This document shows, one piece after another, positions 1 through 22,070 of a stretch of DNA of 64,000 bases. The notes under the pieces are model-generated. The model had not been told where the DNA came from. It made no database searches and was given only the letters and a program-made list of their open reading frames with translations. Every line of letters begins with the position of its first letter. The first letter of the stretch is position 1. The position numbers and the translations under genes are program-made. The stretch lies in NCBI GenBank assembly GCA_014435945.1, contig GCA_014435945.1_4088.1; one strand, 5' to 3'. This stretch comes from a phage.

Positions 1-162
1 GCCACTGGCTTTAAACGCATCGATGCTGATGTAGTATACGCTAAGATGAATAAGCTGGTAGACAAGATTAACGCGAAAGGTACTATCGATTTACAGTACT
101 GGACCGAAACCGATCCAGAATATGGATCTCACCGCTACCTGAATCCAGGTATTAAAATGTAA
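1..162 (+). CDS. hypothetical protein, C-terminal fragment (gene starts upstream of window)
   Basis: Frame 1 open from window edge to TAA at 160-162; promoter follows. Confidence 0.4.
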   Translation, partial: ATGFKRIDADVVYAKMNKLVDKINAKGTIDLQYWTETDPEYGSHRYLNPGIKM

Positions 163-169
163 AAAGTAC

Positions 170-197
170 TTGCATAGTACTTAGATTCATGTATAAT
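170..197 (+). promoter_or_regulatory. sigma70-like promoter
   Basis: TTGCAT 170-175, 16-nt spacer, TG-extended TATAAT 192-197; AGTACT copies flank the -35. Confidence 0.5.
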
Positions 198-251
198 GTT
201 TTACATAGAGAGGGGGAAATGGTTCTCCCTCCTAAATTAAGGAGTTTTATC

Positions 252-653
252 ATGACCTTCTCAATCACTTCCTTCGCTGACGTTTTAGTACTGGCTCGGA
301 CTTTTGGTAAAGATGCACTGGAGTACGCTGTAAGTAATGGCACTATCCAACCGGAACAGTGCCGCATCATTGGAAACTGCAAACGTTGGGCGGTATCCAA
401 TACTATTGCACTGGAAAACTTCAACGATGGCAACAATGAATATTCTGTTGATGTAGTATTCGAAGCCGTAGACCTGGGCGGTATCTATAACACTAACCTG
501 AATGATGTGCGTATCGTTCGCACTGGCTTCGGTGCTTATGATGTATCTATCCGTGAAGCTATGGACAAGGGATACATTAGCAAGGACTTACTTGCTCACA
601 TCATGCAGCTATGGACGGAACGTAACGAAGCACGTACTATCTTAGGGCTGTAA
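252..653 (+). CDS. hypothetical protein (134 aa)
   Basis: ORF-track ORF 189..653 trimmed to ATG 252 preceded by AAGGAG RBS. Confidence 0.65.
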   Translation: MTFSITSFADVLVLARTFGKDALEYAVSNGTIQPEQCRIIGNCKRWAVSNTIALENFNDGNNEYSVDVVFEAVDLGGIYNTNLNDVRIVRTGFGAYDVSIREAMDKGYISKDLLAHIMQLWTERNEARTILGL

Positions 654-678
654 GCAATACACATCACCAAACATCATA

Positions 679-696
679 GGCCGCTCTCTAGCGGCC
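679..696 (+). terminator. GC-rich hairpin, possible terminator or RNA stability element
   Basis: GGCCGC-CTCTA-GCGGCC perfect stem after stop of 252..653; weak T-tract. Confidence 0.3.
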
Positions 697-721
697 TTAA
701 CTATATCAGGAGTACATACAC

Positions 722-931
722 ATGATCTATACAGTATACAACGTTCTAGGCACTATTGCAGGCGTACATGATAACGTCGATAGTGCTATGCGTACAGTAC
801 TGCAACAGGTTCCACTAAAGCCTAAGACCATTAAGCAGATGACAGCACGACTAACCAGGGCGACGGCTGGCGTGGAAGTATGGCAGGACTATGGGGATAC
901 ACAGATAATCGTAAGCGTAACGAAGGATTAA
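722..931 (+). CDS. hypothetical protein (69 aa)
   Basis: ORF with AGGAG RBS about 10 nt upstream. Confidence 0.6.
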   Translation: MIYTVYNVLGTIAGVHDNVDSAMRTVLQQVPLKPKTIKQMTARLTRATAGVEVWQDYGDTQIIVSVTKD

Positions 932-960
932 TGCGTAAAGGGATCTAGTACTGATTCAGA

Positions 961-1024
961 AAAAAGTCAAGGCGTTTTTAAAATTATGCGTTAAAAAAAT
1001 GCATAGGTAATCCCTTGACTTTTT
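961..1024. repeat. perfect 12-bp inverted repeat with 40-nt spacer
   Basis: AAAAAGTCAAGG 961-972 and its reverse complement CCTTGACTTTTT 1013-1024 in a 250-bp non-coding gap. Confidence 0.5.
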
Positions 1025-1122
1025 TGAAATAAAAGGGATTGGACTATGGCAAAATGCGTAGGGGGCTAAAGGGCGGGTAACCTTAGCGACTTCGATAAAG
1101 GGGTATTACTTATAAAATGTTA

Positions 1123-1150
1123 TTGACTTTTTATATGAATCGTATATTAT
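1123..1150 (+). promoter_or_regulatory. sigma70-like promoter for the small-gene array
   Basis: TTGACT 1123-1128, 16-nt spacer, TATTAT 1145-1150. Confidence 0.45.
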
Positions 1151-1180
1151 TGGATTGATATTATTTTTAATGGAGTCCCT

Positions 1181-1378
1181 ATGCGTATTTTAACTCAAGA
1201 AGAGCACAACCACACACTCATATCCAACATGGCATATATCCTACATATGTCACATATCCGTGGTATTGCATATAAGCGTGAATTGGTTATGAAACTTTTC
1301 ATAGGAACTAACTATCAAGAAAAGTATATCGAACTATACTTACAAGAATTACGAAGGGACATAAAAGGTAGACTATGA
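1181..1378 (+). CDS. small protein, tandem paralog family 1 (GTNYQE motif)
   Basis: motif FIGTNYQEKY; first gene of array; stop overlaps next start. Confidence 0.65.
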   Translation: MRILTQEEHNHTLISNMAYILHMSHIRGIAYKRELVMKLFIGTNYQEKYIELYLQELRRDIKGRL

Positions 1379-1575
1379 AAATGCGTATTTTAAATAAAGA
1401 AGATTATCAAGAACTGTTACGTAAAAACATGGTAAAGATTTATAACACAGACACAAACTTAGAACGAATTGAGTTATACCTTTTGATTACATTGGGAACA
1501 AGCTATCAGGGAAGATGGGTGATTCAATATATGGATGCATTGAAAAATGAAATATTATCCACGAGGAAACAATGA
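1375..1575 (+). CDS. small protein, tandem paralog family 1
   Basis: motif LGTSYQGRW; ATGA overlaps both sides. Confidence 0.65.
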   Translation: MKMRILNKEDYQELLRKNMVKIYNTDTNLERIELYLLITLGTSYQGRWVIQYMDALKNEILSTRKQ

Positions 1576-1781
1576 AAACTATAACACGAACCCAATCATA
1601 CGGTCTTATCTTGAGATACATGGACTTAATGTTGGATATCAGAAAAGACCTTCCTAAAACTGCAATTGAAGTTGCAAGAGCAGAGATCCGCATGTTGGCT
1701 GTACTGAACACAAACCATCAGGAAGAGTATGTTGACGATTGGATTCGATTTTTAATAGAAGATATTAAGAGGAAACTATGA
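1572..1781 (+). CDS. small protein, tandem paralog family 1
   Basis: motif LNTNHQEEY; ATGA overlaps. Confidence 0.65.
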   Translation: MKTITRTQSYGLILRYMDLMLDIRKDLPKTAIEVARAEIRMLAVLNTNHQEEYVDDWIRFLIEDIKRKL

Positions 1782-1990
1782 TTTTTTTAACACCAGAAGA
1801 ATATAAGATACGTTTTGTTTCTGTCCAGAATAAAATCTTAATTATATACAATTCAAATGCAGACCTTAACTTATCAAGGGTATTAGAAAAAGATTTACTT
1901 ATGGGTGCATTTTTGGATACAGACTTTCAGGTGTATTATGTAGGGGAATACTTAATTGCACTCCAGAATTACATTAAGAGTAAACTATGA
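1778..1990 (+). CDS. small protein, tandem paralog family 1
   Basis: motif FLDTDFQVYY; ATGA overlaps. Confidence 0.65.
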   Translation: MIFLTPEEYKIRFVSVQNKILIIYNSNADLNLSRVLEKDLLMGAFLDTDFQVYYVGEYLIALQNYIKSKL

Positions 1991-2199
1991 ATAGCATTAA
2001 CTCAAATCTATATACCGAACGCGTCGCTGCCAGACAACTTGAAATTCTCATAGTATATGAAGAGACTGATGATTTAAACTTAGCATTAGTATTGGAAAAT
2101 GATATACTATTGGGTGCATTCCTCGGCACAGACTATCAGGAGCACTTCTTGAATGAGTATATAATTGCACTCCAGAAATACATTAAGAGCAAACTATGA
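1987..2199 (+). CDS. small protein, tandem paralog family 1
   Basis: motif LGTDYQEHF; C-terminus near-identical to previous gene (IALQKYIKSKL). Confidence 0.65.
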   Translation: MNSINSNLYTERVAARQLEILIVYEETDDLNLALVLENDILLGAFLGTDYQEHFLNEYIIALQKYIKSKL

Positions 2200-2414
2200 A
2201 ACATTTAAGTAATTACGAGAAGAATAAAATTATCGTTGCTGCAATAAACAAATATTTTACACTTCCTCACACAGAAGGTTTATGTGTAAGGGAACACAGG
2301 ATAAACACCACCGATATACGCATGATGGCTGTACTGGGGACGAACTTTCAGGAAGAGTATGTTGTTGCACACATAGTTGCCCTCACTGATTTAATAAGGG
2401 ACAAATGCAAATGA
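2196..2414 (+). CDS. small protein, tandem paralog family 1
   Basis: motif LGTNFQEEY. Confidence 0.65.
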   Translation: MKHLSNYEKNKIIVAAINKYFTLPHTEGLCVREHRINTTDIRMMAVLGTNFQEEYVVAHIVALTDLIRDKCK

Positions 2415-2629
2415 AAGACATAAACACTCAAGAATATCTTAAACGATTAGAACAAGGGAAGAACTTTAGACTTCAAGTTTACGATGATGAATCACTAACA
2501 TCCAATGAAAAGTATGTTATACTAACAGACTCAACATTAATACCATTTGTAGGAACAAACTATCAGGAGGTTATGGTAGACAACCACATCACGGCCTTAA
2601 AATGTCATGTCAGGGATTTAGGTAAATGA
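2405..2629 (+). CDS. small protein, tandem paralog family 1
   Basis: motif VGTNYQEVM. Confidence 0.65.
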   Translation: MQMKDINTQEYLKRLEQGKNFRLQVYDDESLTSNEKYVILTDSTLIPFVGTNYQEVMVDNHITALKCHVRDLGK

Positions 2630-2883
2630 AACACTTAACTGATGATGAATTTGAAACTATAATTCGTAAACTAACCCCCATCACAAGGATAGTCTACGGT
2701 GACCCCAGCCTTACATGGAACCAAATGCGAGCTAAAGTTAATGAGCTATGGTTGCTGTACTTTATGGGGACTCAATATCAAGATAAGTTTTGCACAGAAT
2801 ATATCGAACAATTAACGAATGTTATACAGGATAAACTAGATGATTATTTGCTCACAAAACATGAAGACTTTATCAGGAGTTGA
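2626..2883 (+). CDS. small protein, tandem paralog family 1
   Basis: motif MGTQYQDKF. Confidence 0.65.
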   Translation: MKHLTDDEFETIIRKLTPITRIVYGDPSLTWNQMRAKVNELWLLYFMGTQYQDKFCTEYIEQLTNVIQDKLDDYLLTKHEDFIRS

Positions 2884-3112
2884 GTATCAAACTGCCCTAT
2901 TCTCTTTAATCCATACCCTTAGAAAAAACAATGCCTTACATGGTGCACCTGAAGTGGATGTTATCAACGGTGAACTTTATCTTATGAAATTCATTGGAAC
3001 AAACTATCAAGATCTGTTCATTCAACGATACTTATCAGCATTAAGAAACCAAATCCAATATAAAACCATCAAGGCCAAAAAAGAATGGAATAAACAATGC
3101 GACACAGACTAA
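2861..3112 (+). CDS. small protein, tandem paralog family 1
   Basis: motif IGTNYQDLF; start set to internal ATG (MKTLSGVEY) by family N-terminal pattern; ORF-track start 2840. Confidence 0.55.
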   Translation: MKTLSGVEYQTALFSLIHTLRKNNALHGAPEVDVINGELYLMKFIGTNYQDLFIQRYLSALRNQIQYKTIKAKKEWNKQCDTD

Positions 3113-3348
3113 ATCACAAAATGTATTGTAAACTATTACAGACACTGGCACAGAAACACTATGACACGGTATCTGAAATATTACCCTATGATATCATGCG
3201 TTTACTTCACTGTGAGGCCGAGATGCTTGTACTGATGACAGGCACAGATAAAAAAGCAATTGCCAAATCAATAGATATGTTCATCGAAGCACAATGTCAA
3301 CACATTAGAACCGAGATATGGAGGCGAGAGAATGATAACCCTAAATGA
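3097..3348 (+). CDS. small protein, tandem paralog family 1 (divergent)
   Basis: motif degenerated to MTGTDKKAI; same size and position in array. Confidence 0.55.
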   Translation: MRHRLNHKMYCKLLQTLAQKHYDTVSEILPYDIMRLLHCEAEMLVLMTGTDKKAIAKSIDMFIEAQCQHIRTEIWRRENDNPK

Positions 3349-3547
3349 GTATCAGTATCATTGGAGGTTACAAGCTATAAGAAGGAAAGTTGTTAGTATT
3401 TCTTTAGACAAGTCTATTGCACAAGAGGACAAATGTGTTATAATAGCTGAAATGAAGTTGGGTGCTTTCGTAGGAACAAACTATCAAAACATCTACACTG
3501 ACGTATTGTTAAGTGCCTTACGTAACAAGGTGATATCAAAAGAATGA
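3332..3547 (+). CDS. small protein, tandem paralog family 1
   Basis: motif VGTNYQNIY. Confidence 0.65.
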   Translation: MITLNEYQYHWRLQAIRRKVVSISLDKSIAQEDKCVIIAEMKLGAFVGTNYQNIYTDVLLSALRNKVISKE

Positions 3548-3762
3548 GAAAATTACAAGGCTTTGAATACATCAGACTCCTGAAAACATGTGCCAACAGA
3601 AGAGTAAAGATTCAATCTGATAAGAGCATCCCTGCCAACCTAAAACATGCAATGATAGCTGAACTCTATGCAGGGGCACTCATAGGGACAAACTATCAAC
3701 AAATGTATATAGACATGTGGGTTGATGCATTAGTCAAGGAGATCCAAAGTAAATGCAAATGA
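3544..3762 (+). CDS. small protein, tandem paralog family 1
   Basis: motif IGTNYQQMY. Confidence 0.65.
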   Translation: MRKLQGFEYIRLLKTCANRRVKIQSDKSIPANLKHAMIAELYAGALIGTNYQQMYIDMWVDALVKEIQSKCK

Positions 3763-3971
3763 TTAATTTAAGTAAAGATGAATATTATGATCGTCTTGCA
3801 AAAACTTATCCAGCACGTAACGCCGTTTATAATAGTAACATTATTGAACGCTCAAAGAAGTTGATTGTAGTGAATGAGATTAAGATGCTTTCAGTCTTAG
3901 GAACAAACTATCAAGAGAATGCTGTACTGTTGTTAATTGATGCCCTCCAGAGAGAGATACAAAGTAAATGA
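3753..3971 (+). CDS. small protein, tandem paralog family 1
   Basis: motif LGTNYQENA. Confidence 0.65.
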   Translation: MQMINLSKDEYYDRLAKTYPARNAVYNSNIIERSKKLIVVNEIKMLSVLGTNYQENAVLLLIDALQREIQSK

Positions 3972-4204
3972 TTAATTTATCTTTCCATGAATATCAAAAA
4001 CGTTTAAATGCATCAAGGGATATAAGGATTCAAATCTTCAATAACAAAAAATTGAAACCTGACACCAGAAGAATCAAAATAATAGAAGCAGAGTTATGCA
4101 ACTTCCTGGGGACGAACCATCAGGAAGGTAAGATAAAAAACTATCTTAGAGAACTAATGAATTGTATCGAAAATAAATGCGATGCTTTGGAGAATAAAAA
4201 ATGA
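3968..4204 (+). CDS. small protein, tandem paralog family 1
   Basis: motif LGTNHQEGK. Confidence 0.65.
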   Translation: MINLSFHEYQKRLNASRDIRIQIFNNKKLKPDTRRIKIIEAELCNFLGTNHQEGKIKNYLRELMNCIENKCDALENKK

Positions 4205-4458
4205 TCAATTTAAGTAAAGATGAATATACCGAGCGTATGACAAAAATCTCACCTAAACGTAATGCAATCTATTACAGCCAAGAAATTCCACACAGTAAGA
4301 AGATGATTATGTATCGTGAGTTAAAGATGGGTATGTTCTTAGGAACAAACTATCAAGAACCAGAAGTAAATCGCTTAATAAATGAATTACTCATGGAAAT
4401 CAGAGGTAAGCTGTACTTTCATCAAATGACCCAGCCACTGAGGTGTACTAAGAAATGA
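4201..4458 (+). CDS. small protein, tandem paralog family 1
   Basis: motif LGTNYQEPE. Confidence 0.65.
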   Translation: MINLSKDEYTERMTKISPKRNAIYYSQEIPHSKKMIMYRELKMGMFLGTNYQEPEVNRLINELLMEIRGKLYFHQMTQPLRCTKK

Positions 4459-4670
4459 TCAACATCACATTGCAAGAAAGATTCATCCGAATCAACTATG
4501 CAATTACCAAATTAGATGCTACTATAGACAACCAAAGTTTACCGTTCAAAACAAGAATGATATTAGAGTGCGAAGCCAAGTTAGGTGTACTGTTAGGGAC
4601 GCAACACCAACAACGATATGTGGAAATCTGGATTGATCTTTTAACCCAAAATGCACATGAGAGAATGTAA
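4455..4670 (+). CDS. small protein, tandem paralog family 1
   Basis: motif LGTQHQQRY. Confidence 0.65.
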   Translation: MINITLQERFIRINYAITKLDATIDNQSLPFKTRMILECEAKLGVLLGTQHQQRYVEIWIDLLTQNAHERM

Positions 4671-4901
4671 ATGCAAAAGGAAATGATATACTTAACACAT
4701 GATGAATTTCAAGAGAAGATGTTAAAAGCCAATAACATTACTCTTAAGTTCGTTCCAAATCAATCAATATATGAAATGTCTGCGAATGTATTGTTTCAGA
4801 AGCTACCATACGTTCTTGGAACTGATAAACAAGAATTTATGGTTCAAAATATGATTGAGCATCTTGCAATGAGTATTATGGAAAAAGTAAATGCAAAATG
4901 A
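4671..4901 (+). CDS. small protein, tandem paralog family 1
   Basis: motif LGTDKQEFM preceded by VLFQKLPY. Confidence 0.65.
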   Translation: MQKEMIYLTHDEFQEKMLKANNITLKFVPNQSIYEMSANVLFQKLPYVLGTDKQEFMVQNMIEHLAMSIMEKVNAK

Positions 4902-5133
4902 AATGAAATACTTAACATATAATGAATACGTCGAGAGATTAGTTAGTGCCAAGAGATATGCCAATCAACTTCCTAATGATCCAAACCAAACCCCAGAGGA
5001 AAAGAATGCGGAAGCTCTATTCCAAGCACTACCATACCTTCTTGGAACTGATAGGCAGGAGTATCACGTTGAACGTATAATTAAATCTCTTAAAATCACT
5101 ATTAAGGAAAAAGTAAATGCAAAAGCAAAATGA
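4891..5133 (+). CDS. small protein, tandem paralog family 1
   Basis: motif LGTDRQEYH preceded by ALFQALPY. Confidence 0.65.
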   Translation: MQNEMKYLTYNEYVERLVSAKRYANQLPNDPNQTPEEKNAEALFQALPYLLGTDRQEYHVERIIKSLKITIKEKVNAKAK

Positions 5134-5380
5134 AATGAAATACTTAACAGACGATGAGTTAAAAGAACGATTAATTAAATCCAGAAAACTTACAAATCAA
5201 CTTCCAATCGACACAAACAAGTCACATGCCGAAAGGAGTGCAGAAGTTTTATACATTCAACTCCTGTACTTTCTTGGAACTGACAGACAAGAGTATTACA
5301 TTGAAAGTATGCTTCGATATCTTAAATTCTCTATAAAGGAAAAGGTACATGCTCAAGAATTTAAAAATCCTAACAGTTAA
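5117..5380 (+). CDS. small protein, tandem paralog family 1
   Basis: motif LGTDRQEYY. Confidence 0.65.
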   Translation: MQKQNEMKYLTDDELKERLIKSRKLTNQLPIDTNKSHAERSAEVLYIQLLYFLGTDRQEYYIESMLRYLKFSIKEKVHAQEFKNPNS

Positions 5381-5591
5381 TGAATATCATAAGATTGTAA
5401 TGAAAACTAATAGTGAAATTTCTAAAAAATCAAACCCAAAGTACATACTGGAACACACATTCGAAGAACGTCAATTAGCTCTAGTTGAAGCAAAACTTCT
5501 TGCACTCCTAGGAACAAACTATCAGGAAGAATACATCAGAAAACTAATATACCTTTTAACTAAACACATCAGGAAAAGAAAAAAAGCATGA
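5349..5591 (+). CDS. small protein, tandem paralog family 1
   Basis: motif LGTNYQEEY. Confidence 0.65.
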   Translation: MLKNLKILTVNEYHKIVMKTNSEISKKSNPKYILEHTFEERQLALVEAKLLALLGTNYQEEYIRKLIYLLTKHIRKRKKA

Positions 5592-5818
5592 AACACTTGA
5601 CAGATGATGAACATGGGCTTATAGTAATGGATGTAATCAACATCGAATACAAAAAGTTGATACGCTACCGTTGTTATGAAGATAAGCAACTCGTTCTAGC
5701 AGAACAGAAGTTGTTTCGACTCTTAAACACAAACTTCCAAGCACAATACGAAGAATCGTATTTGTACCTACTGTCGAGGAAAGCAAAAAGAGATTATGAA
5801 AATTTTAAACCACAGTGA
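5588..5818 (+). CDS. small protein, tandem paralog family 1
   Basis: motif LNTNFQAQY. Confidence 0.6.
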   Translation: MKHLTDDEHGLIVMDVINIEYKKLIRYRCYEDKQLVLAEQKLFRLLNTNFQAQYEESYLYLLSRKAKRDYENFKPQ

Positions 5819-6011
5819 ACAAACAGAATTGTTAATCTTTAATACAAGTAAATTCTTAAACATAACATTGTCTGATATAGATGAGGATGAAAAAGAGTTA
5901 CTTAGAGCAGATTTAAGAGTTCTTTTATATGTTGGAACTAACTTCCAAGAGCAATTCGTTGAGGACTACATCGATGAACTTAAAGAATCTGTACTGAGAA
6001 CATGCAAATGA
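5796..6011 (+). CDS. small protein, tandem paralog family 1
   Basis: motif VGTNFQEQF. Confidence 0.65.
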   Translation: MKILNHSEQTELLIFNTSKFLNITLSDIDEDEKELLRADLRVLLYVGTNFQEQFVEDYIDELKESVLRTCK

Positions 6012-6235
6012 AAATCCTTTCACCAAGTGAATACCACGAACTATTAAGTAGTTTAATTCTAAAATTGTATATAGCAAAGACCACAGATTTACCTGATGAA
6101 GAAAAAAATATTCTAATGAGTGAAATCTATGTTAATTCTACCCTAGGGACTAACTATCAAGAATGTAATATTAATGATTACATCAATGAACTAAAAAGGT
6201 TTATCCAATGCAAATGCGAATCATTACCGAAGTAG
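6002..6235 (+). CDS. small protein, tandem paralog family 1
   Basis: motif LGTNYQECN. Confidence 0.65.
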   Translation: MQMKILSPSEYHELLSSLILKLYIAKTTDLPDEEKNILMSEIYVNSTLGTNYQECNINDYINELKRFIQCKCESLPK

Positions 6236-6450
6236 AATACCTAACAATCATAAATGGACTGTTTTCGAAGTTATTTGCCATTAACACATCAAAACTTCCA
6301 GATACTGATAAAATTATTAAGTTAAATGAAATCTACGTTCAAGCTACTCTAGGAACAAACTATCAAGAAGCCAATGTGTATAATTACATTAATACACTCA
6401 AAAGGGTAATACAATTAAAATGCACAGACAGCACACACACAAACCCCTAG
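6208..6450 (+). CDS. small protein, tandem paralog family 1
   Basis: motif LGTNYQEAN; close paralog of previous gene. Confidence 0.65.
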   Translation: MQMRIITEVEYLTIINGLFSKLFAINTSKLPDTDKIIKLNEIYVQATLGTNYQEANVYNYINTLKRVIQLKCTDSTHTNP

Positions 6451-6650
6451 GAACAGCAGAATACATTGAACTAATGGCTGCAAACTTCTCATCCTTTAAG
6501 AAACTGATGCAAGAATCAAATAATGATTTAGAATATCATATCAAAAGTTCAGATTTAAGATTACTACTCACTCTAGGAACAGACAGTCAGTACAAATTCG
6601 TACAGGAGCATATTAGAGCACTTTTAAATGGCATCAGGGATAAACTATGA
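6420..6650 (+). CDS. small protein, tandem paralog family 1
   Basis: motif LGTDSQYKF; start overlaps previous gene by about 30 nt. Confidence 0.55.
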   Translation: MHRQHTHKPLGTAEYIELMAANFSSFKKLMQESNNDLEYHIKSSDLRLLLTLGTDSQYKFVQEHIRALLNGIRDKL

Positions 6651-6862
6651 AGGAAATATCAAATCAAGAGTACTTGGCACTGTTCAGAAAAAATAGTCAA
6701 GAATTTCTGAATATTGATACAAGGACTGATATAAGTGAACTTCAGAAAAATCTTTTGCGTTCAGAGATGATAGTACTGACACTCTTAGGAACACAGCATC
6801 AAGAGAGAACTGTTAATTCACACATAGGTATTCTTATACAGATTGTACAGGAAAAGATATGA
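6647..6862 (+). CDS. small protein, tandem paralog family 1
   Basis: motif LGTQHQERT. Confidence 0.65.
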   Translation: MKEISNQEYLALFRKNSQEFLNIDTRTDISELQKNLLRSEMIVLTLLGTQHQERTVNSHIGILIQIVQEKI

Positions 6863-7080
6863 GAATCATAACACAACAAGATATTCTTAAGTTCACAAGG
6901 GTTCATGCATCTGAATTTGATGCTATATTATCAAAAAGTTACAATGACCCTTATACAGAAGATGTACTCTACAATGAATTATGGGTGTATATACTTTTAG
7001 GTACAGATCATCAAGAGCAAGCCGTACAGAAGTATTTGACAGCTTTACGTGATGCTACAGCTAATGGAGTACATGTTTAA
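6859..7080 (+). CDS. small protein, tandem paralog family 1
   Basis: motif LGTDHQEQA. Confidence 0.65.
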   Translation: MRIITQQDILKFTRVHASEFDAILSKSYNDPYTEDVLYNELWVYILLGTDHQEQAVQKYLTALRDATANGVHV

Positions 7081-7081
7081 T

Positions 7082-7333
7082 ATGAAAGTACTGACAGAAT
7101 TAGAAATGTATCATAGATTTAACAAGTACTATCATTTACTTAAACCTATACAGAGGATTAAGTGTCCCTTTGTAGTGAAACAGGTATTAATTTATGAGCA
7201 TAAGTTATTTGTATCATTAGGTACGAATGAACAAGAGTATTATTTGAAGTTGTACTTAATTACATTAATAGATTTAATTCACTATAAAACCACACAATCC
7301 AAACAAGCTAATAAAGAGAAATATGAAAACTAA
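7082..7333 (+). CDS. small protein, tandem paralog family 1
   Basis: motif LGTNEQEYY; start moved to ATG just after upstream stop (ORF-track start 7049). Confidence 0.6.
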   Translation: MKVLTELEMYHRFNKYYHLLKPIQRIKCPFVVKQVLIYEHKLFVSLGTNEQEYYLKLYLITLIDLIHYKTTQSKQANKEKYEN

Positions 7334-7661
7334 TATACAACTCAAGGTTTATAAATCATTTGCAAGTACATACATCAAATGCTATACATGTAACTATGTA
7401 ATGGACTACAAAGGTAAGCCATTTACACTTACTTACGATAATACAAGAGGTTTTTATATATCTTTTGCTGATTACAAATATAACATATACGAACACATTG
7501 ACATTGAAGATTTAAGTACTTTATCACCAGAGGAATACTTTCAGGAATCGTTAGTATGGGATTTGGAGTTTCCTATGCCATTAGTACATAAAATGGTAGT
7601 CCAAATGAAAGAAGCTAAACCGGAGTTTAACGGTTATGAAGAATACACAATTGAGTATTAA
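7323..7661 (+). CDS. hypothetical protein, paralog family 2 (acidic-FQ-S motif)
   Basis: motif PEEYFQESLVWD. Confidence 0.65.
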   Translation: MKTNIQLKVYKSFASTYIKCYTCNYVMDYKGKPFTLTYDNTRGFYISFADYKYNIYEHIDIEDLSTLSPEEYFQESLVWDLEFPMPLVHKMVVQMKEAKPEFNGYEEYTIEY

Positions 7662-7877
7662 ATGAAAAGATTATCATACGAAGATTACACCAATCTTATC
7701 AGGACTTTACAACCAGAAATTAAAAGAATTAATTCTCTTCCTATATCTAATGAAGAATGTTCAGTACTGAAAGATGAGTTAATCTTAAAACACACAGTAG
7801 GAACAAACTATCAAGCAGATAGTGTTCGATATTTAATTTGGGGGTTGATGTGTCAAATAAAGTCCAGACAAGCTTGA
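7662..7877 (+). CDS. small protein, tandem paralog family 1
   Basis: motif VGTNYQADS; ATG directly follows upstream TAA. Confidence 0.65.
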   Translation: MKRLSYEDYTNLIRTLQPEIKRINSLPISNEECSVLKDELILKHTVGTNYQADSVRYLIWGLMCQIKSRQA

Positions 7878-7932
7878 CAGTACTCTTCATTACTGCTATA
7901 GTACACTAACGTTAATCATTAGGGTAAAAATT

Positions 7933-8178
7933 ATGTTAAATTTTTTAAATTTCCTTATCGTCTTGTGTATTGTTCTTGGGATTGCACCATTTGTATTGTA
8001 TTTCATGGATTCAGATGAAATGCAGAAGATGAATTGCACAAGGACAGGACAGAGTAGAGAAGAGACGATTCTTATGCCTGTTACGGTTATTGTTAACAAC
8101 ATGCCCATTACAAACATGGTCCCTACCCTAACGACAACGTACCAGTACTCTTGTACAGACGGAGAGAGGTGGAGATAA
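7933..8178 (+). CDS. small membrane protein (one N-terminal TM helix)
   Basis: hydrophobic N-terminus LNFLIVLCIVLGIAPFVLYF. Confidence 0.55.
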   Translation: MLNFLNFLIVLCIVLGIAPFVLYFMDSDEMQKMNCTRTGQSREETILMPVTVIVNNMPITNMVPTLTTTYQYSCTDGERWR

Positions 8179-8501
8179 TGTGTAAGTTCAATTGTATTGT
8201 ACGTAAGAATTCATGTTACATTGTAGTAGCTGATTTTAATACAGGTTCTGGGTTGAAGATATTTGAGTACAGAAAATGCAATAATTCTTTTCATTGGAAA
8301 TTGGGTGCAAGAAAAACAAAAACAATTTCAGTACCGAATTTATGTTCTATCTCTGAAGAAGAAGAGTTTCAGTACTTGTTAGTACATGATGATTCTTTAG
8401 GATTTACATTCGAAGACATGAAGGAAGTACAAAAGCAGATGATTGCACATTGTCATCTTCCAAAGAATTTTGTTCAACGCGTATGTGAATTCTACATATA
8501 A
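8178..8501 (+). CDS. hypothetical protein, paralog family 2
   Basis: motif EEEEFQYLLVHDD; start at ATG overlapping upstream TAA with GGAG RBS (ORF-track start 8151). Confidence 0.6.
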   Translation: MCKFNCIVRKNSCYIVVADFNTGSGLKIFEYRKCNNSFHWKLGARKTKTISVPNLCSISEEEEFQYLLVHDDSLGFTFEDMKEVQKQMIAHCHLPKNFVQRVCEFYI

Positions 8502-8510
8502 GAGAAGAAT

Positions 8511-8822
8511 ATGAAATTTAATATAGCAAAAACATCGAGTATATGTATTTTTGGTTATGCAGAAGAGTTAGGTGATATTGACATTCTTTTGTACAAAAAG
8601 GATGGTGTTATGCATTTCAAGTACCAGGATGAAGAGGCAGACAATTATCTTTTACCTAATTTAGTACAAATGCAGGAAGAGGAATTATTCCAGTACAGCT
8701 TAATATACGACATTGATATTTGCACGATGCCAGTATTAATTAGTATTCAAAAAGTGATGCTCGATATGTATGATAAGCTAATACAAGGTATGTCAGGGAG
8801 GATCATTGAAATTGACATATAA
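8511..8822 (+). CDS. hypothetical protein, paralog family 2
   Basis: motif QEEELFQYSLIYD. Confidence 0.65.
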   Translation: MKFNIAKTSSICIFGYAEELGDIDILLYKKDGVMHFKYQDEEADNYLLPNLVQMQEEELFQYSLIYDIDICTMPVLISIQKVMLDMYDKLIQGMSGRIIEIDI

Positions 8823-8850
8823 GAATATACCTAAAGGAGATGCAATATAA

Positions 8851-9102
8851 ATGTACAAAAAAATAAACCGTTATTTGTATGCATCAAAGTACAGGGATTT
8901 TTGTTTACGAGGGGGAGAGGAAGATTTTGCTCTGAGGTTATCGGAATTTAATATGTTATTTTATCTTGGGTCAAAAGAACAAGAAGATACAGTACAGAAA
9001 TTTCTCAATCATCTTGTACAAAAAATTAATATGCAAATTTTGATGCTTAAGTTACAGGATGAGATAAATGAATATGAATCCAGAAATAGTTCAGGATCTT
9101 AA
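8851..9102 (+). CDS. small protein, family-1-like
   Basis: degenerate motif YLGSKEQEDT; AGGAG RBS. Confidence 0.55.
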   Translation: MYKKINRYLYASKYRDFCLRGGEEDFALRLSEFNMLFYLGSKEQEDTVQKFLNHLVQKINMQILMLKLQDEINEYESRNSSGS

Positions 9103-9457
9103 AAAAGTAATATTTCTTTTGAATACAAGAAGCTCTTTATATAAGGAATTCAAAGATAATGATGGTTCTTTTAAACCATTATGTATAGAATTCAATGATT
9201 TAATTACAGATGCATTGTTTGAATTTTCAGAGAAATATCAAGATACCGTGTTTGGTGTTAAGAATGTTATTAGTCCAAGTTCAAGGAAGATAACGTTATC
9301 TCATTTTACATTTGACAATAAAGATTTATTCAGTTATAATCCTAGTACATCTTTATATTTTATTCCTAAAGGAGAAAAGAATAGTCCTATTCATTACGGA
9401 TGGATTATATCTTATACAATAAATGGAACGGAGTATCCTATCAAATGGCACGATTAG
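9068..9457 (+). CDS. hypothetical protein (129 aa)
   Basis: ORF in tight series; overlaps upstream gene by about 35 nt. Confidence 0.55.
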   Translation: MNMNPEIVQDLKKVIFLLNTRSSLYKEFKDNDGSFKPLCIEFNDLITDALFEFSEKYQDTVFGVKNVISPSSRKITLSHFTFDNKDLFSYNPSTSLYFIPKGEKNSPIHYGWIISYTINGTEYPIKWHD

Positions 9458-10121: not shown

Positions 10122-10682
10122 ATGAATGATATTGAGTTATTGGTACATAAGATTTGCACAATATCGTTAGTGCTGAACAATGCGAATACAGTACAGAGTT
10201 CCCTTTTAAGAATTAATAAAGTTGGGAGTAGTTTATATTTGGAAGTAAAAGCTGGTTTTGCAGGTCAGTACAATGATAAAATCAAAGAAGAAGTTAAGGG
10301 AAGTGAAGATGCTTTCATTGAGGTTTGTGCAACAGTTGGTTCAAATCCAATTTCAGTATCACCGTTAATGCGAAATGAAAATTCAGAATTTAATTCCATT
10401 TTTGAAGGTTATTTGTGGTATAATGCTGGAGATGATTATTTTATATATCAGAATTCCAAAACGGATTACAGTGAAGAAGGTATAAAATTCATTGATCCTT
10501 ACAATGAAGCAGAAGTATTTCAGACATCCCTAATATACAATGCAAATCAAATGAAGTATCTTATGTTGTTTAGTACAATGCATTTGAATCCATTGAAAGA
10601 TAATTTAAAATTTTTCATTCGTTTAGAATTAGTTGATATTGCTTATGATCTTTTAATGCAAGGATACAGTTATGAAGTATAA
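10122..10682 (+). CDS. hypothetical protein, paralog family 2
   Basis: motif EAEVFQTSLIYNA; C-terminus LLMQGYSYEV shared with 10759..11265. Confidence 0.65.
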   Translation: MNDIELLVHKICTISLVLNNANTVQSSLLRINKVGSSLYLEVKAGFAGQYNDKIKEEVKGSEDAFIEVCATVGSNPISVSPLMRNENSEFNSIFEGYLWYNAGDDYFIYQNSKTDYSEEGIKFIDPYNEAEVFQTSLIYNANQMKYLMLFSTMHLNPLKDNLKFFIRLELVDIAYDLLMQGYSYEV

Positions 10683-10752
10683 AATGCTTTATACAAAAGA
10701 TATGATTTATGTTGAATTAGAAGGCAATGACGATGTATCCATCAATAGGTAA
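10672..10752 (+). pseudogene. truncated N-terminal remnant of a family-2 paralog (26 codons)
   Basis: encodes MKYKMLYTKDMIYVELEGNDDVSINR, matching the N-terminus of 11255..11566 (MKYKMLYTLTLIYVELESDSDAW); junction sequence duplicated at 11235-11285. Confidence 0.6.
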
Positions 10753-10758
10753 TAATAT

Positions 10759-11265
10759 ATGAATGAGATAGAATTATTAGCACACAAGATTAGTACAGTA
10801 ATGCTTATGCTCAAGAATAATCATTCTATGCATAAGTACATTTTTATAGGTGATTTACGCATAGAAGATAGATATGATAAATTATCGTTTATGTTTAAAG
10901 ATGAAAGTAATGCAAAAGTTTGTTTTGCAGCATTTGCCCAAGGCAATCCAGAACAAGCATCTCCTGTTATATACGAAAATAGTGAAGGGTATTTGTGGGT
11001 CAACACAAACGATTATTTCTTTTATGTTTTGAAACAAGATGATGAAGTAGAAGCACGAATTGATTTAATTGATATTAGTACAGATTGTAGTGCTGAATTA
11101 TTTCAGAAATCGTTATTATACAGTCCTCGTCAAATACATTATCTAAAGTTATTCAGTTCATTGTACGCGAATCCTTTAATTAAGGGTTTTAAATTTTATA
11201 TCAAAATTCCGCACCTTTCAAACGTTTATGATTTATTAATGCAAGGATATAGTTATGAAGTATAA
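10759..11265 (+). CDS. hypothetical protein, paralog family 2
   Basis: motif SAELFQKSLLYSP; ends LLMQGYSYEV. Confidence 0.65.
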   Translation: MNEIELLAHKISTVMLMLKNNHSMHKYIFIGDLRIEDRYDKLSFMFKDESNAKVCFAAFAQGNPEQASPVIYENSEGYLWVNTNDYFFYVLKQDDEVEARIDLIDISTDCSAELFQKSLLYSPRQIHYLKLFSSLYANPLIKGFKFYIKIPHLSNVYDLLMQGYSYEV

Positions 11266-11566
11266 AATGCTTTATACATTAACATTAATATATGTAGAAT
11301 TAGAATCCGATTCAGATGCATGGAATTTGGTTAAAGAGGTCGATACCAATCAATGGTACATGGCAAATTTAGACGCACAGGTTGTTACGGATTATTTTAT
11401 AGATTTTAATACATTATCTGAAGAAGAATTTTTCCAAATGCAATTGGTGGTTGACATGTACGGGCATGACATGGTAACATTACGAAATATACAGAAAGCC
11501 GTTAATGAAATCCAAAGCAAGAAAGATTATGAGGTAGGAGAGTATTATGAGATCGACGTACAGTGA
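11255..11566 (+). CDS. hypothetical protein, paralog family 2
   Basis: motif SEEEFFQMQLVVD. Confidence 0.65.
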   Translation: MKYKMLYTLTLIYVELESDSDAWNLVKEVDTNQWYMANLDAQVVTDYFIDFNTLSEEEFFQMQLVVDMYGHDMVTLRNIQKAVNEIQSKKDYEVGEYYEIDVQ

Positions 11567-11904
11567 AAGCAATGAGTACAATAGTTATGATATATAAAAT
11601 GCTTTATACAGTATCGGGGATATATGTAGAATTAGAACCCGATTATCCAGATGGATGGAATTTTATTAAACGCTCCGATAGAAATACATGGCAAATGGAA
11701 CATTTGGATAATGACGTAATATTAGACAATTTTGTGGATTTTAATACATTATCAGAAGAAGAATTCTTCCAAATGCAATGTGTGCTTGACACAAAAGGAT
11801 TTGATGTGCTATTATTAAAGAATATACAGAAAGCTGTTAACGAATTAATATCCAATGACGAGTTAGGCAAAGTGAGGCTGTTCCATGATCTCGAAGTACA
11901 ATGA
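11563..11904 (+). CDS. hypothetical protein, paralog family 2
   Basis: motif SEEEFFQMQCVLD; close paralog of previous gene. Confidence 0.65.
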   Translation: MKAMSTIVMIYKMLYTVSGIYVELEPDYPDGWNFIKRSDRNTWQMEHLDNDVILDNFVDFNTLSEEEFFQMQCVLDTKGFDVLLLKNIQKAVNELISNDELGKVRLFHDLEVQ

Positions 11905-12460
11905 AAGCAATGAGTACAATGAAATTCAGTACACCTACGCTAATGCAATCCTTATGGGACAAAAGTTAGCTTGTATTGTTGCAGCCTTATATAATGCACA
12001 GAAAGATTACAAGCGTCACATCCACAAATGTATTGGTATTATTCCATCGAAGTACAATACATATATTGCGTGCACGAGTCATTTTGATAAACGATTCAAT
12101 ACACCTGATACCCCAAATGCCCATAGTGTTATTGGTCTTTTGGATTTTGCCCCTGGTGCTGTTATTGGAAAGAATGATTTAGAGTACGCATGGTATAATA
12201 AAAATGCCCCGTTAGTAATGGTAAAATATGATACAGAAACGAACAAAGCAATAGAGTACAATACATATAAATCAGAGGAAGAATTTTTCCAAGGTTCATT
12301 GCTTGTACCAGTGCGATTGTTATTTTATAATGTCATAATGAGTACAGTACACGATAGTCCATTACACAAGAATCACAAAATTAATTTCAATTTTTGTGCT
12401 TATGCGATTGATGGTGTTTATGAGTGCTTAATGGAGGTATTGAGTTATGAAGCTGAATAA
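11885..12460 (+). CDS. hypothetical protein, paralog family 2
   Basis: motif SEEEFFQGSLLVP. Confidence 0.65.
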   Translation: MISKYNESNEYNEIQYTYANAILMGQKLACIVAALYNAQKDYKRHIHKCIGIIPSKYNTYIACTSHFDKRFNTPDTPNAHSVIGLLDFAPGAVIGKNDLEYAWYNKNAPLVMVKYDTETNKAIEYNTYKSEEEFFQGSLLVPVRLLFYNVIMSTVHDSPLHKNHKINFNFCAYAIDGVYECLMEVLSYEAE

Positions 12461-21175: not shown

Positions 21176-21705
21176 GAAAAATTAACATTAATGATTATGA
21201 TGCATTACAAGATTTATCAAAAAAGATTCGCACTATCGTACCAGTACTGAAAAAATGCAGTACTGGATTAATTGATCCTAGTACAGTTATTAGTGAGAAG
21301 TACGATTTCCATAAACTGTTACAAGGGAATGGTGCATTCCAGAAGTGTGAGATACGTGAGAAACACGTCATTGATACATCATTGCTTTCAATTGGTTCAG
21401 CCGTTCATAAGAATGTTGTATACCTTGAATCCAGATCTGAAACTATTCGACAGATGACTTTTAAGAAAAAGTGTACTGAAATTGACGTGTACACTATGAT
21501 ATGGGGTTATCCAGAGTTATATCGTACTATTAATATTCCTAAGTACAATTACAATTCATTTGAAGAACAGTGCTTTCAACTATCTTGTACTGATCCTGAC
21601 TATGCTATTATTCAGTTCTATATGGAATTACAGATGGCATTTAACAGTAATTTAAATATCAATTTATTAAAGGTTGATTTCGATGAAGTATTCAAAAACA
21701 TTTAA
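21172..21705 (+). CDS. hypothetical protein, paralog family 2
   Basis: motif FEEQCFQLSCTDPD; no in-frame ATG near 5' end, so probable TTG start at 21172. Confidence 0.5.
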   Translation: MRKININDYDALQDLSKKIRTIVPVLKKCSTGLIDPSTVISEKYDFHKLLQGNGAFQKCEIREKHVIDTSLLSIGSAVHKNVVYLESRSETIRQMTFKKKCTEIDVYTMIWGYPELYRTINIPKYNYNSFEEQCFQLSCTDPDYAIIQFYMELQMAFNSNLNINLLKVDFDEVFKNI

Positions 21706-21901
21706 TCGAATTGAATACATGAGAACTGTGAGTGCAGTGTGGGACATATGGTTCACTACTAAACCAAAAATGGATTACCATGACTTTAAGCTATTGTTTT
21801 TCGTTGGCTCTAACAAACAGGATGTTGCAATGAAGGGTTATATTCAGCACTTACAGGAACTAATACAGAAGAGGGTTTATGAAAATAATAAACCAAGATG
21901 A
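21674..21901 (+). CDS. small protein, family-1-like
   Basis: motif FVGSNKQDVAMKGYIQHLQELI; start ambiguous (21674 or 21719). Confidence 0.5.
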   Translation: MISMKYSKTFNRIEYMRTVSAVWDIWFTTKPKMDYHDFKLLFFVGSNKQDVAMKGYIQHLQELIQKRVYENNKPR

Positions 21902-22070
21902 TATTGCTAAACTATTCAATATATATTCTTCTAAAATGATGCAAACCGACTCATATAGTACTGAATTCAAAGAATTAAAAGTACTGATGTATTTGGGCAC
22001 ACAGTATCAGGAACAAGTTGTTAAAGAATATATTGATTCTTTACAGAAGGATATCCGTTATGTACAATGA
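21879..22070 (+). CDS. small protein, family 1
   Basis: motif YLGTQYQEQVVKEYIDSL. Confidence 0.6.
   Translation: MKIINQDDIAKLFNIYSSKMMQTDSYSTEFKELKVLMYLGTQYQEQVVKEYIDSLQKDIRYVQ

What the first reader, a model, noticed from the sequence alone, without database searches (positions are those of the whole stretch)
1181..7877. Array of about 30 tandem, translationally coupled 65-90 aa genes with a GTNYQE motif
From the promoter at 1123-1150, thirty small ORFs follow head to tail, nearly all joined by ATGA or similar overlaps. Each has an N-terminal M-x-x-L-x-x-E-Y pattern and a C-terminal hydrophobic-GTNYQE-x-Y-hydrophobic core with variants (GTDRQEY, GTQHQQ, NTNFQ). Three more members sit elsewhere (8851, 21674, 21879). 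Several members also carry LFQ just upstream of the motif (VLFQKLPYVLGTDKQEF), hinting that families 1 and 2 may be distantly related. This much coding capacity spent on one tiny fold suggests a multi-specificity small-protein arsenal; the function is unknown.
Basis: seen in the sequence. Interest (0 to 1): 0.8.

Follow-up and report, generated by a model that had tools for sequence, protein, structure and literature searches.

The report
Thirty-gene small-protein family in jumbo phage
A giant E. coli virus devotes 6.7 kb, starting right after its terminal repeat, to 29 back-to-back genes for one family of tiny four-helix proteins with a shared core and different surfaces; they are probably an early-expressed set of binders against host factors, but no function has been tested.

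Summary
Window 1181-7877 holds 30 head-to-tail + strand ORFs. Twenty-nine belong to one family (PHROG 4148, unknown function); one (7323-7661) belongs to an unrelated family. Three more members lie at 8851, 21674/21683 and 21879.

The window comes from an Asteriusvirus, a Rak2-like jumbo coliphage. The array starts 98 bp after the left direct terminal repeat, behind a conserved sigma70-type promoter. Sixteen of 29 junctions are ATGA overlaps.

These are real protein genes, not a DNA repeat. Paralogues share 24% protein identity, TRF finds no matching repeat, and orthologue dN/dS is 0.34. AlphaFold gives a four-helix domain at pLDDT 97.8.

Core and GT-x-x-Q columns are constrained (omega about 0.18); surface columns are looser (about 0.43). 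Each copy is closer to its positional orthologue than to any paralogue.

The family occurs only in Asteriusvirus and, in smaller clusters, in Klebsiella Alcyoneusvirus. One Asteriusvirus sub-lineage carries a largely different 20-21-gene repertoire behind near-identical repeat-end genes.

The proposed link to "family 2" is refuted. Function remains inferred: most likely early host-takeover or anti-defence binders.

The parts
1..1083 (+). Last 1.08 kb of the direct terminal repeat (DTR), including two repeat-end genes (189-653, 722-931). The DTR boundary is at 1083.
   Evidence: The right end of the linear vB_Ec-M-J genome aligns to window 1-1083 at 97% and stops there. The annotated DTR is 1-21525, with the first array gene at 21624. 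fEgEco12 has a DTR of 20,993 bp, confirmed by restriction digests (PMC13070987).
1123..1150 (+). Sigma70-type promoter-like site TTGACT-N16-TATTAT, 40 bp past the DTR boundary and 31 bp before the first ATG.
   Evidence: Conserved in 5 of 6 relatives; PBECO4 has another consensus-like site at the same place. Function is inferred, not shown.
1181..1378 (+). Family member 1 (65 aa)
   Evidence: HMM E = 1.7e-17; alignment
1375..1575 (+). Member 2 (66 aa; ATGA overlap)
1572..1781 (+). Member 3 (69 aa; ATGA overlap; NTNHQE variant)
1778..1990 (+). Member 4 (70 aa; ATGA overlap; DTDFQ variant)
1987..2199 (+). Member 5 (70 aa; ATGA overlap; 51% identical to member 4)
2196..2414 (+). Member 6 (72 aa; ATGA overlap)
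2405..2629 (+). Member 7 (74 aa from 2405; the family-consistent start at 2411 gives an ATGA overlap). Absent or replaced in vB_Ec-M-J, PBECO4 and G17.
2626..2883 (+). Member 8 (85 aa; ATGA overlap; C-terminal tail)
2840..3112 (+). Member 9 (90 aa from 2840; family-consistent start at 2861)
3097..3348 (+). Member 10 (83 aa; divergent motif GTDKKAIAKS with an insertion)
3332..3547 (+). Member 11 (71 aa)
3544..3762 (+). Member 12 (72 aa; ATGA overlap). This is the protein that was modelled.
   Evidence: AF2 pLDDT 97.8, helices 6-14, 17-25, 31-45 and 52-71
3753..3971 (+). Member 13 (72 aa from 3753; family-consistent start at 3759 gives an ATGA overlap)
3968..4204 (+). Member 14 (78 aa; ATGA overlap)
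4201..4458 (+). Member 15 (85 aa; ATGA overlap; best HMM score; 56% identical to member 13)
4455..4670 (+). Member 16 (71 aa; ATGA overlap; GTQHQQ variant). Replaced in ph0011.
4671..4901 (+). Member 17 (76 aa; GTDKQE; alternative start at 4683)
4891..5133 (+). Member 18 (80 aa; GTDRQE; alternative start at 4903)
5117..5380 (+). Member 19 (87 aa; GTDRQE; alternative start at 5135). Members 17-19 form a recent sub-cluster (45-51% identity).
5349..5591 (+). Member 20 (80 aa)
5588..5818 (+). Member 21 (76 aa; ATGA overlap; NTNFQ variant)
5597..5625 (+). The only near-consensus sigma70-like site inside the array (TTGACA-17-TATAGT, 11 of 12); a possible internal promoter
5796..6011 (+). Member 22 (71 aa)
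6002..6235 (+). Member 23 (77 aa from 6002; family-consistent start at 6008 gives an ATGA overlap)
6208..6450 (+). Member 24 (80 aa; alternative start at 6214; 49% identical to member 23)
6420..6650 (+). Member 25 (76 aa; GTDSQY variant)
6647..6862 (+). Member 26 (71 aa; ATGA overlap)
6859..7080 (+). Member 27 (73 aa; ATGA overlap)
7049..7333 (+). Member 28 (GTG start at 7049; the family-consistent ATG at 7082 gives 83 aa)
7323..7661 (+). Interloper, not a family-1 member: 112 aa, PHROG 13866 ('family 2'), predicted beta-sheet plus two helices
7662..7877 (+). Member 29, the last gene of the array (71 aa)
7874..7902 (+). Next strong sigma70-like site (TTGACA-17-TATAGT with TG), right at the end of the array. 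It marks the start of the next transcription unit.
8851..9102 (+). Dispersed member 30 (83 aa; GSKEQE variant)
   Evidence: HMM E = 4.5e-13
21674..21901 (+). Dispersed member 31 (TTG start at 21674; ATG at 21683; GSNKQD variant)
   Evidence: HMM E = 9.4e-8, not in the training set
21879..22070 (+). Dispersed member 32 (63 aa; GTQYQE)
   Evidence: HMM E = 2.4e-14, not in the training set

Best explanation
This is an old, lineage-specific multigene family (PHROG 4148) of roughly 70-aa soluble four-helix proteins. This jumbo coliphage genome has 32 copies.

Expression (inferred). Twenty-nine copies form one gap-free, translationally coupled block. It is the first unique-sequence transcription unit after the left terminal repeat. 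Host sigma70 RNA polymerase probably transcribes it within the first minutes of infection, as one or two polycistronic mRNAs, so all copies are made together.

Scaffold and surface. Sequence comparison shows that the hydrophobic core, the Gly at the end of helix 3 and the T-x-x-Q(E) at the start of helix 4 are held constant. I infer that these are a helix C-cap and a helix N-cap capping box, meaning they hold the fold together and are not an active site. The exposed faces of helices 1, 2 and 4 and the 26-30 loop differ completely between copies, yet they are conserved within each orthologous lineage.

Function (inferred, untested). Each copy is most likely a stoichiometric binder or inhibitor of a different macromolecular target. 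Candidate targets are host takeover factors or strain-variable defence or competitor proteins. On this reading the array acts as a battery of specificities.

I put the gene-family, operon and fold part at above 0.95. I put the early-expression part at about 0.75 and the multi-target binder function at about 0.4.
For: Real, selected protein genes:
- Concatenated orthologue dN/dS is 0.34-0.36 in five phage pairs, with a third-position excess.
- T49 shows 1 replacement against 17 synonymous changes; L63 shows 1 against 11.
- Conserved residues use several synonymous codons, paralogue DNA identity is only 42%, and TRF finds no unit of about 215 bp.

One fold:
- AF2 pLDDT is 97.8 from 32 paralogues.
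- No TM-like segment is present.

Scaffold versus surface:
- Omega is 0.17-0.20 for core and motif columns and 0.40-0.46 for surface columns in all five pairs.
- Surface column entropy exceeds 3 bits between paralogues.
- pI ranges from 4.4 to 9.9.

Each copy is kept individually:
- 28-29 of 29 members are closer to their positional orthologue than to any paralogue.
- Copy number is 29-32 in ten relatives of the main clade.

Tandem-duplication origin:
- Adjacent copies are 30.5% identical, against 24.9% for random pairs (p < 0.0002).

Coupled operon:
- 16 of 29 junctions are ATGA overlaps and no gap exceeds 9 nt.

Early, host-RNAP transcription (inferred):
- Near-consensus sigma70 sites number 21 on the + strand and 1 on the - strand, against 2.4 +/- 1.5 in shuffles.
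- The promoter upstream of the array is conserved.
- The array starts 98 bp after the DTR boundary.
- In the Rak2-clade relative PA5oct, infection depends on host RNAP and the small genes within its DTR dominate 5-min transcription (PMC7318152).

Accessory, fast-turnover character:
- dN/dS is twice that of 41 other genes of the same phage pair (0.34 against 0.16).
- The family is found only in Asteriusvirus and Alcyoneusvirus.
- Turkey5 and JNE01 have repeat-end genes 95-99% identical to the window's. Their array is a different set of 20-21 members, with median best identity 0.34-0.35.

Not virion-associated:
- No array gene product is among the 62 phAPEC6 virion proteins.
Against: - There are no transcript, ribosome-footprint, peptide or interaction data for any member. 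No Asteriusvirus transcriptome turned up in the searchable literature.
- No member resembles any known inhibitor, anti-defence protein or host-takeover factor in sequence or fold.
- No column shows significant positive selection. The best is column 68, with omega about 2.7 and p = 0.12. An arms race is therefore not demonstrated, and the faster surface evolution could simply be relaxed constraint.
- Tight equimolar coupling would fit copies that work together in one complex equally well.
- The promoter evidence is a consensus match only.
Confidence: 0.45

Rival explanations
1. The copies work together and not separately. They would be subunits of one hetero-oligomeric early assembly, for example a protective coat, a scaffold or a nucleoid-remodelling complex. 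Diversification would then reflect subunit specialisation and not different external targets.
For: Gap-free translational coupling predicts roughly equimolar co-production. Every copy is retained in the main clade. Helical bundles often pack against each other.
Against: A fixed assembly should keep its subunit set. Yet Turkey5 and JNE01 carry only 20-21 largely different copies, and Klebsiella phages carry about 14 in scattered small clusters. Charge varies from -7 to +9 with no complementary pattern that I could see. No oligomer prediction could be run.
Confidence: 0.15
2. They are nucleic-acid-binding or RNA-polymerase-binding regulators, such as small transcription factors or anti-sigma or appropriator-like proteins. 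They would reprogramme host or phage transcription at many promoters.
For: Inferred early expression. Small helical proteins often do this. Iyer et al. proposed such a role for the roughly 35-copy zinc-ribbon expansion of Bacillus phage G (PMC7824862).
Confidence: 0.1
3. They act against other phages or mobile elements, in superinfection exclusion or inter-phage competition, and not against the host.
For: The anatomy is the same as for the best explanation. Hypervariable repertoires between related phages would also suit competition. Jumbo-phage genomes persist in bacterial isolates (PMC12768965).
Against: No direct evidence. None of my data can separate this from the host-directed version.
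Confidence: 0.1
4. They are packaged internal proteins injected with the DNA, like the polymorphic T4 IP proteins. The conserved N-terminus would serve as a capsid-targeting sequence.
For: A conserved N-terminal M-K-x-L-x-x-x-E-Y, small size, and polymorphism between phages.
Against: None of gp462c-gp489c is among the 62 virion proteins of phAPEC6, although a 4.7-kDa protein was detected. In the model the N-terminus is part of the fold, with residue 2 bridged to T49. The genes sit among early-type promoters and not in a late head module.
Confidence: 0.03
5. The periodicity is a DNA-level repeat, or the ORFs are decaying, non-functional duplicates.
For: None beyond the regular spacing.
Against: TRF finds no repeat and paralogue DNA identity is 42%. 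dN/dS is 0.34 and core omega is 0.18. All 29 frames are intact here and in ten relatives. The AF2 model is highly confident.
Confidence: 0.02

Closest known systems
PHROG 4148 (with sub-family PHROG 28039), a catalogued phage orthologous group of unknown function
   Same: Thirty of the 32 window proteins match PHROG 4148, up to E = 4e-26 over the full 74-position profile. This is the same family.
   Different: The PHROG entry has no name, function, structure or description. I found no paper noting the tandem array, its position or its evolution.
Lineage-specific expansions in jumbo phages, e.g. the roughly 35-copy zinc-ribbon family of Bacillus phage G (Iyer et al. 2021, PMC7824862)
   Same: Tens of copies of one very small domain in a single giant phage genome, with function unknown and only guessed.
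   Different: A different fold (all-alpha, no metal ligands) in different phages. Here the copies form one uninterrupted, coupled operon at a defined position next to the terminal repeat.
Terminal multigene families of large eukaryotic DNA viruses: ASFV MGF110/360/505 and the poxvirus Bcl-2-like family (comparison from my own knowledge, not tested)
   Same: Works alike in outline. Many diverged paralogues of a small, mostly helical scaffold lie near a genome end. The fold is conserved, the surfaces are divergent and the repertoire varies between strains. In poxviruses, individual members bind different host immune proteins.
   Different: No homology. The host is a bacterium. Targets here are unknown. 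The copies here are old and individually conserved, so this is not a recent 'accordion' amplification.
Early host-takeover gene blocks at phage genome ends: T7 class I genes, T5 pre-early genes, the SPO1 terminal-redundancy host-takeover module (from my own knowledge), and the PA5oct DTR early genes (PMC7318152)
   Same: Clusters of small genes of unknown function beside or inside long terminal repeats, driven by host-type promoters and expressed first.
   Different: Those blocks contain mostly unrelated genes. Here one family supplies 29 consecutive genes.
Polymorphic internal proteins of T4-like phages (IPI, IPII, IPIII)
   Same: Small, polymorphic, with a conserved N-terminus, and an anti-defence role in at least one case (IPI*; from my own knowledge).
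   Different: The array proteins are not in the phAPEC6 virion proteome, and the N-terminus is part of the folded domain.

Membership tests
PHROG 4148 | Significant full-length match to the family profile HMM | tested here: met
   30 of 32 members match, best E = 4.2e-26, covering positions 1-72 of 74.
Any Pfam, NCBIfam or PADLOC family | A match above the curated threshold, or one shared by several members | tested here: not met
   Only scattered hits to single members, with E >= 0.001 and all below cut-off.
Any solved protein structure family (including anti-CRISPR and anti-defence proteins in the PDB) | Sequence-profile or fold similarity | tested here: not met
Packaged internal proteins (T4 IP type) | Presence in the mature virion | tested here: not met
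   The phAPEC6 virion mass-spectrometry list (62 proteins) contains none of gp462c-gp489c. This is literature evidence for an orthologous array, not for this exact phage.
Packaged internal proteins (T4 IP type) | N-terminal capsid-targeting peptide removed by the prohead protease | not testable with these tools
   The N-terminus is modelled as part of the fold. Cleavage cannot be tested in silico.
DNA-mimic anti-restriction proteins (Ocr/ArdA type) | Uniformly strong negative charge | tested here: not met
   pI 4.4-9.9 and net charge -7 to +9; about half the members are basic.
Recent gene-amplification 'accordion' | Near-identical copies, with copy number varying between close relatives | tested here: not met
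   Mean paralogue identity is 24%, maximum 56%. Copy number is 29-32 in the main clade, with 1:1 positional orthologues.
Tandem DNA repeat, CRISPR-like or satellite array | Nucleotide-level repeat unit | tested here: not met
   TRF finds only two trivial short repeats. Paralogue DNA identity is 42%.
   hhalign probability 0.07%. The AF2 model of family 2 is a beta-sheet plus two helices, against four helices for family 1.
Early (host-RNAP) phage transcription unit | A sigma70-type promoter and expression in the first minutes of infection | tested here: inconclusive
   A conserved promoter-like site, and a 21:1 strand bias of near-consensus sites against 2.4 expected. There are no expression data for this genus.

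The most novel reading that the evidence does not exclude
The array is a bacteriophage counterpart of the terminal multigene families of poxviruses and ASFV. It would be a heritable library of about 30 small helical binders on one scaffold, each neutralising a different strain-variable host defence or takeover target. Whole alternative repertoires (the 29-31-gene type seen here and the 20-21-gene type of Turkey5 and JNE01) would be exchanged by recombination just outside the terminal repeat, and would help set host range.
Probability: 0.3. Interest if true: 0.8.

Novelty: new member of a known kind. Interest (0 to 1): 0.6.

Why it matters
If the binder-battery reading is right, one culturable E. 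coli phage offers about 30 natural variants of a 70-residue scaffold, each with its own target. That would be a compact source of new inhibitors of bacterial defence or housekeeping proteins, and a tractable model for how large viruses build multigene families.

Even without a known function, it is among the largest tandem paralogue arrays in a cultured phage. It has a confidently predicted fold with no solved relative. It also marks the start of the hypervariable early region of a phage group being considered for therapy.

Tried and rejected
- DNA-repeat explanation: TRF and codon analysis. Rejected.
- Relationship to family 2: hhalign, iterative HMM searches and a second AF2 model. Rejected.
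- Packaged internal proteins: phAPEC6 virion proteome. Disfavoured.
- Uniform DNA mimic or uniform DNA binder: charge analysis. Rejected.
- Membrane or secreted proteins: hydropathy. Rejected.
- The fused 269-aa homologue P0083 as a clue to function: it is a read-through of two adjacent genes in EC.P1 and UB, and its C-terminal part is a standalone hypothetical gene in RaK2. Uninformative.
- The search for related loci on viral contigs failed because the alignment has no conserved 7-10-column stretch.
- Per-column positive selection across 11 arrays: nothing significant.
- Literature searches for a description of the array or for Asteriusvirus transcriptomics: nothing found.

Full report
**Source and setting**

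The window is from a Rak2-like jumbo coliphage of the genus Asteriusvirus.
- Positions 1000-9000 match 36 phage records (32 Escherichia, 4 Salmonella). The best is Turkey3 at 97.2%.
- Positions 30000-50000 match the same group.
- Every relative annotates the region only as 'hypothetical protein'.
- The window has about 158 genes, all on the + strand, and is 97% coding. Seventy-two of the genes fall into paralogous families, and this family is the largest.

**Checking the observation**

From 1181 to 7877 there are 30 head-to-tail + strand ORFs.
- An HMM built from them recovers 29 at E = 1e-16 to 1e-27.
- It also finds 8851, and the untrained ORFs at 21864-22067 (E = 2e-14) and 21671-21898 (E = 9e-8). 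The next ORF scores E = 0.14.
- The thirtieth ORF (7323-7661) is not a member. It belongs to PHROG 13866.
- The alignment is clean. Mean pairwise identity is 24%. G48, T49, Q52 and L63 are near-invariant. The N-terminus reads M-K-x-L-x-x-x-E-Y.
- Sixteen of 29 junctions are ATGA overlaps and no gap exceeds 9 nt. ATGA overlaps are 45% in the array (first-ATG starts) against 12% elsewhere in the window (p = 2e-4). Gaps of 30 nt or more occur 0 times in the array, against 28 of 128 junctions elsewhere.

**Protein genes, not a DNA repeat**

- TRF finds no unit of about 215 bp.
- Paralogue DNA identity is 42%. Conserved residues use several codons: four Gly codons at G48, three Thr codons at T49, six Leu codons at L63.
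- Against five relatives, concatenated positional orthologues give dN/dS of 0.34-0.36, with most changes at third positions.
- Forty-one other genes of the same phage pair give 0.16. The family is therefore selected but evolves about twice as fast as its neighbours.

**Fold**

- AlphaFold2, using only the 32 paralogues as the alignment, gives pLDDT 97.8 and pTM 0.83. The model has helices at 6-14, 17-25, 31-45 and 52-71, and a small bridge between residue 2 and T49.
- Foldseek against viral models finds only the same family in 121Q, PBECO4, UB and slurp01. A profile search of PDB sequences finds nothing.
- Pfam, NCBIfam and PADLOC give no family. PHROG 4148, of unknown function, matches 30 of 32 members.
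- No member has a TM-like segment. pI ranges from 4.4 to 9.9.

**Where the constraint lies**

Changes were pooled by alignment column across orthogroups.
- Buried and motif columns are strongly constrained. T49 shows 1 replacement against 17-18 synonymous changes; G48 shows 2 against 11-15; L63 shows 1-2 against 11-12.
- Exposed positions on helices 1, 2 and 4 and in the 26-30 loop change near the neutral ratio.
- As classes, core and motif columns have omega of 0.17-0.20 and the other columns 0.40-0.46, in all five pairs.
- No single column reaches significance for positive selection. The best is column 68, with omega about 2.7 and p = 0.12.
- Position in the model suggests that L47-G48 is the C-cap of helix 3 and T49-x-x-Q52(E53) is an N-terminal capping box of helix 4. 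On that reading the motif is structural. This is an inference from general helix-capping rules and was not checked on coordinates.

**History of the family**

- Adjacent copies are more alike than random pairs (30.5% against 24.9%, p < 0.0002), as tandem duplication predicts. Yet 28-29 of 29 copies are closer to their positional orthologue in another phage than to any paralogue. The expansion is old and each copy is kept.
- The main clade holds 29-32 copies, with a few local replacements at members 7, 16, 17 and 29.
- Turkey5 and JNE01 differ sharply. The two genes at the end of the terminal repeat are 95-99% identical in protein to the window's. The array that follows has only 20-21 members, with median best identity 0.34-0.35 to any window member, and only two clear orthologues.
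- A profile search of 1.84 billion representative proteins finds only 93 clusters.
- Two annotated searches find only Asteriusvirus and Klebsiella Alcyoneusvirus proteins, from RaK2, K64-1, Muenster, KP13-7 and phiKp_21.
- In KP13-7 and K64-1 there are at least 14 shorter members in several small clusters within 40 kb.

**Position and expression**

- The right end of the linear vB_Ec-M-J genome aligns to window 1-1083 and stops there. The annotated 21,525-bp DTR ends 99 bp before that phage's first array gene. fEgEco12, whose termini were confirmed by restriction digests, has the same layout (and H7). The array is therefore the first transcription unit in unique sequence after the left DTR.
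- The site TTGACT-16-TATTAT at 1123-1150 is conserved in five of six relatives.
- Near-consensus sigma70 sites (at least 11 of 12) number 21 on the + strand and 1 on the - strand, against 2.4 +/- 1.5 in shuffles. Only one lies inside the array (5597-5625). The next (7874-7902) sits at the array's end.
- No convincing intrinsic terminator lies within the array.
- In the Rak2-clade phage PA5oct, infection is rifampicin-sensitive and the small uncharacterised genes within its DTR dominate transcription at 5 min (PMC7318152). The CBB paper likewise suspects that RpoD-type promoters mark an early region extending into the repeat.
- Early expression here is therefore inferred, not shown.

**Tests of rival explanations**

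- Packaged internal proteins: none of phAPEC6 gp462c-gp489c is among its 62 virion proteins.
- Relation to family 2: hhalign probability is 0.07%. Family 2 is a separate expansion, with 14 ORFs at first pass and about 33 by iteration. Its predicted fold is a beta-sheet plus two helices.
- The 269-aa homologue P0083 is a read-through fusion in EC.P1 and UB. Its C-terminal part is a standalone hypothetical gene in RaK2.

**Interpretation**

Shown:
- a selected, old, lineage-restricted multigene family with one small helical fold;
- a conserved scaffold with copy-specific surfaces;
- packing into a coupled operon at the DTR boundary;
- repertoire replacement between sub-lineages.

Inferred:
- early transcription by host RNA polymerase;
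- a structural role for the GT-x-x-Q motif.

Hypothesised (about 0.4):
- each copy binds a different host, defence or competitor target, so the block acts as a battery of specificities.

The main alternative is that the copies act together in one assembly. My data do not exclude it. The differing repertoires argue against it.

**Novelty**

The genes are deposited and grouped in PHROGs, but I found no description of the array, its fold, its position or its evolution. Expansion of small domains in jumbo phages is a known phenomenon (phage G zinc ribbons, PMC7824862). I therefore class this as a new member of a known kind. It is unusually large and orderly, and it can be tested directly in E. coli.

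Noticed in passing
window 7323-7661, 8178-8501, 8511-8822, 11255-11566, 11587-11904, 16901-17278, 17278-17634, 17631-17975, 19975-20289, 23213-23572, 23562-23900, 24639-24983, 25455-25817, 25801-26214: A second large paralogous family (PHROG 13866, motif EEELFQESLVWD). It has 14 ORFs on the first HMM pass and about 33 after four iterations, reaching to about 35 kb. The AF2 model is a 5-6-strand sheet plus two helices (pLDDT 77). It is unrelated to family 1.
   Followed up: partly
window 10122-26700 (starts 10122, 10759, 11885, 13302, 14701, 18159, 18626, 19069, 19535, 20289, 20729, 22060, 23890, 24501, 24980, 26214): A third family of 16 proteins of 146-194 aa. Four members scanned against Pfam had no match. 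Iterated family-2 profiles begin to pull these in, so they may carry a family-2-like domain. Overall, 72 of 158 genes in the window belong to paralogous families.
   Followed up: partly
whole window, + strand (e.g. 9312-9340, 24438-24467, 41230-41258, all 12 of 12): Near-consensus sigma70 promoter sites (at least 11 of 12) number 21 on the + strand and 1 on the - strand, against 2.4 expected. The whole 64 kb looks like a host-RNAP-transcribed early region.
   Followed up: partly
window 1040-1083: The physical genome end (DTR boundary) maps to position 1083. The terminal sequence is a G-rich stretch, ...GCGTAGGGGGCTAAAGGGCGGGTAACCT, which could be part of the terminase recognition or cutting site.
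   Followed up: partly
L014 (Turkey5 PQ471516 18500-31500) and L015 (JNE01 OR670491 324000-340000): An alternative array 'haplotype'. The repeat-end genes are 95-99% identical to the window's, but the array has 20-21 members, of which only two have clear orthologues in the window. The downstream genes are also divergent.
   Followed up: yes
L008 (Klebsiella phage KP13-7) 20565-20930 and 24245-24592: Two Klebsiella-phage members (121 and 115 aa) carry a shared C-terminal extension of about 55 aa that is absent from all coliphage members. P0090 matches the first of them, and P0073 is a similarly extended metagenomic relative.
   Followed up: no
window 1181-7877 compared with 30000-50000 (against ph0011): Synonymous divergence to ph0011 is 0.26 in the array but 0.51 in the 30-50 kb region. 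This suggests a mosaic history or extra constraint on silent sites in the array.
   Followed up: no
window 1-8000: The array has unusual composition. AT skew is 0.10-0.24, against about 0.02-0.09 elsewhere. GC skew is near zero over most of it, against 0.05-0.27 elsewhere. GC falls from 0.38 to 0.31 along it.
   Followed up: no
L003 (PBECO4 KC295538) and L013 (CMSTMSU MH494197): The older GenBank annotations miss many array genes. They have 21 and 16 CDS under the match, against 31-32 HMM-supported members, so gene counts from these records understate the family.
   Followed up: partly
protein hits: Many homologues are labelled 'Escherichia coli' but sit on contigs of 343-360 kb. These are whole jumbo-phage genomes inside bacterial isolate assemblies, as described in PMC12768965.
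   Followed up: no
window 33332-33742: The ph0011 counterpart at the corresponding position is annotated 'putative ADP-ribosyl transferase', but the window protein has no Pfam match at E <= 0.01.
   Followed up: no
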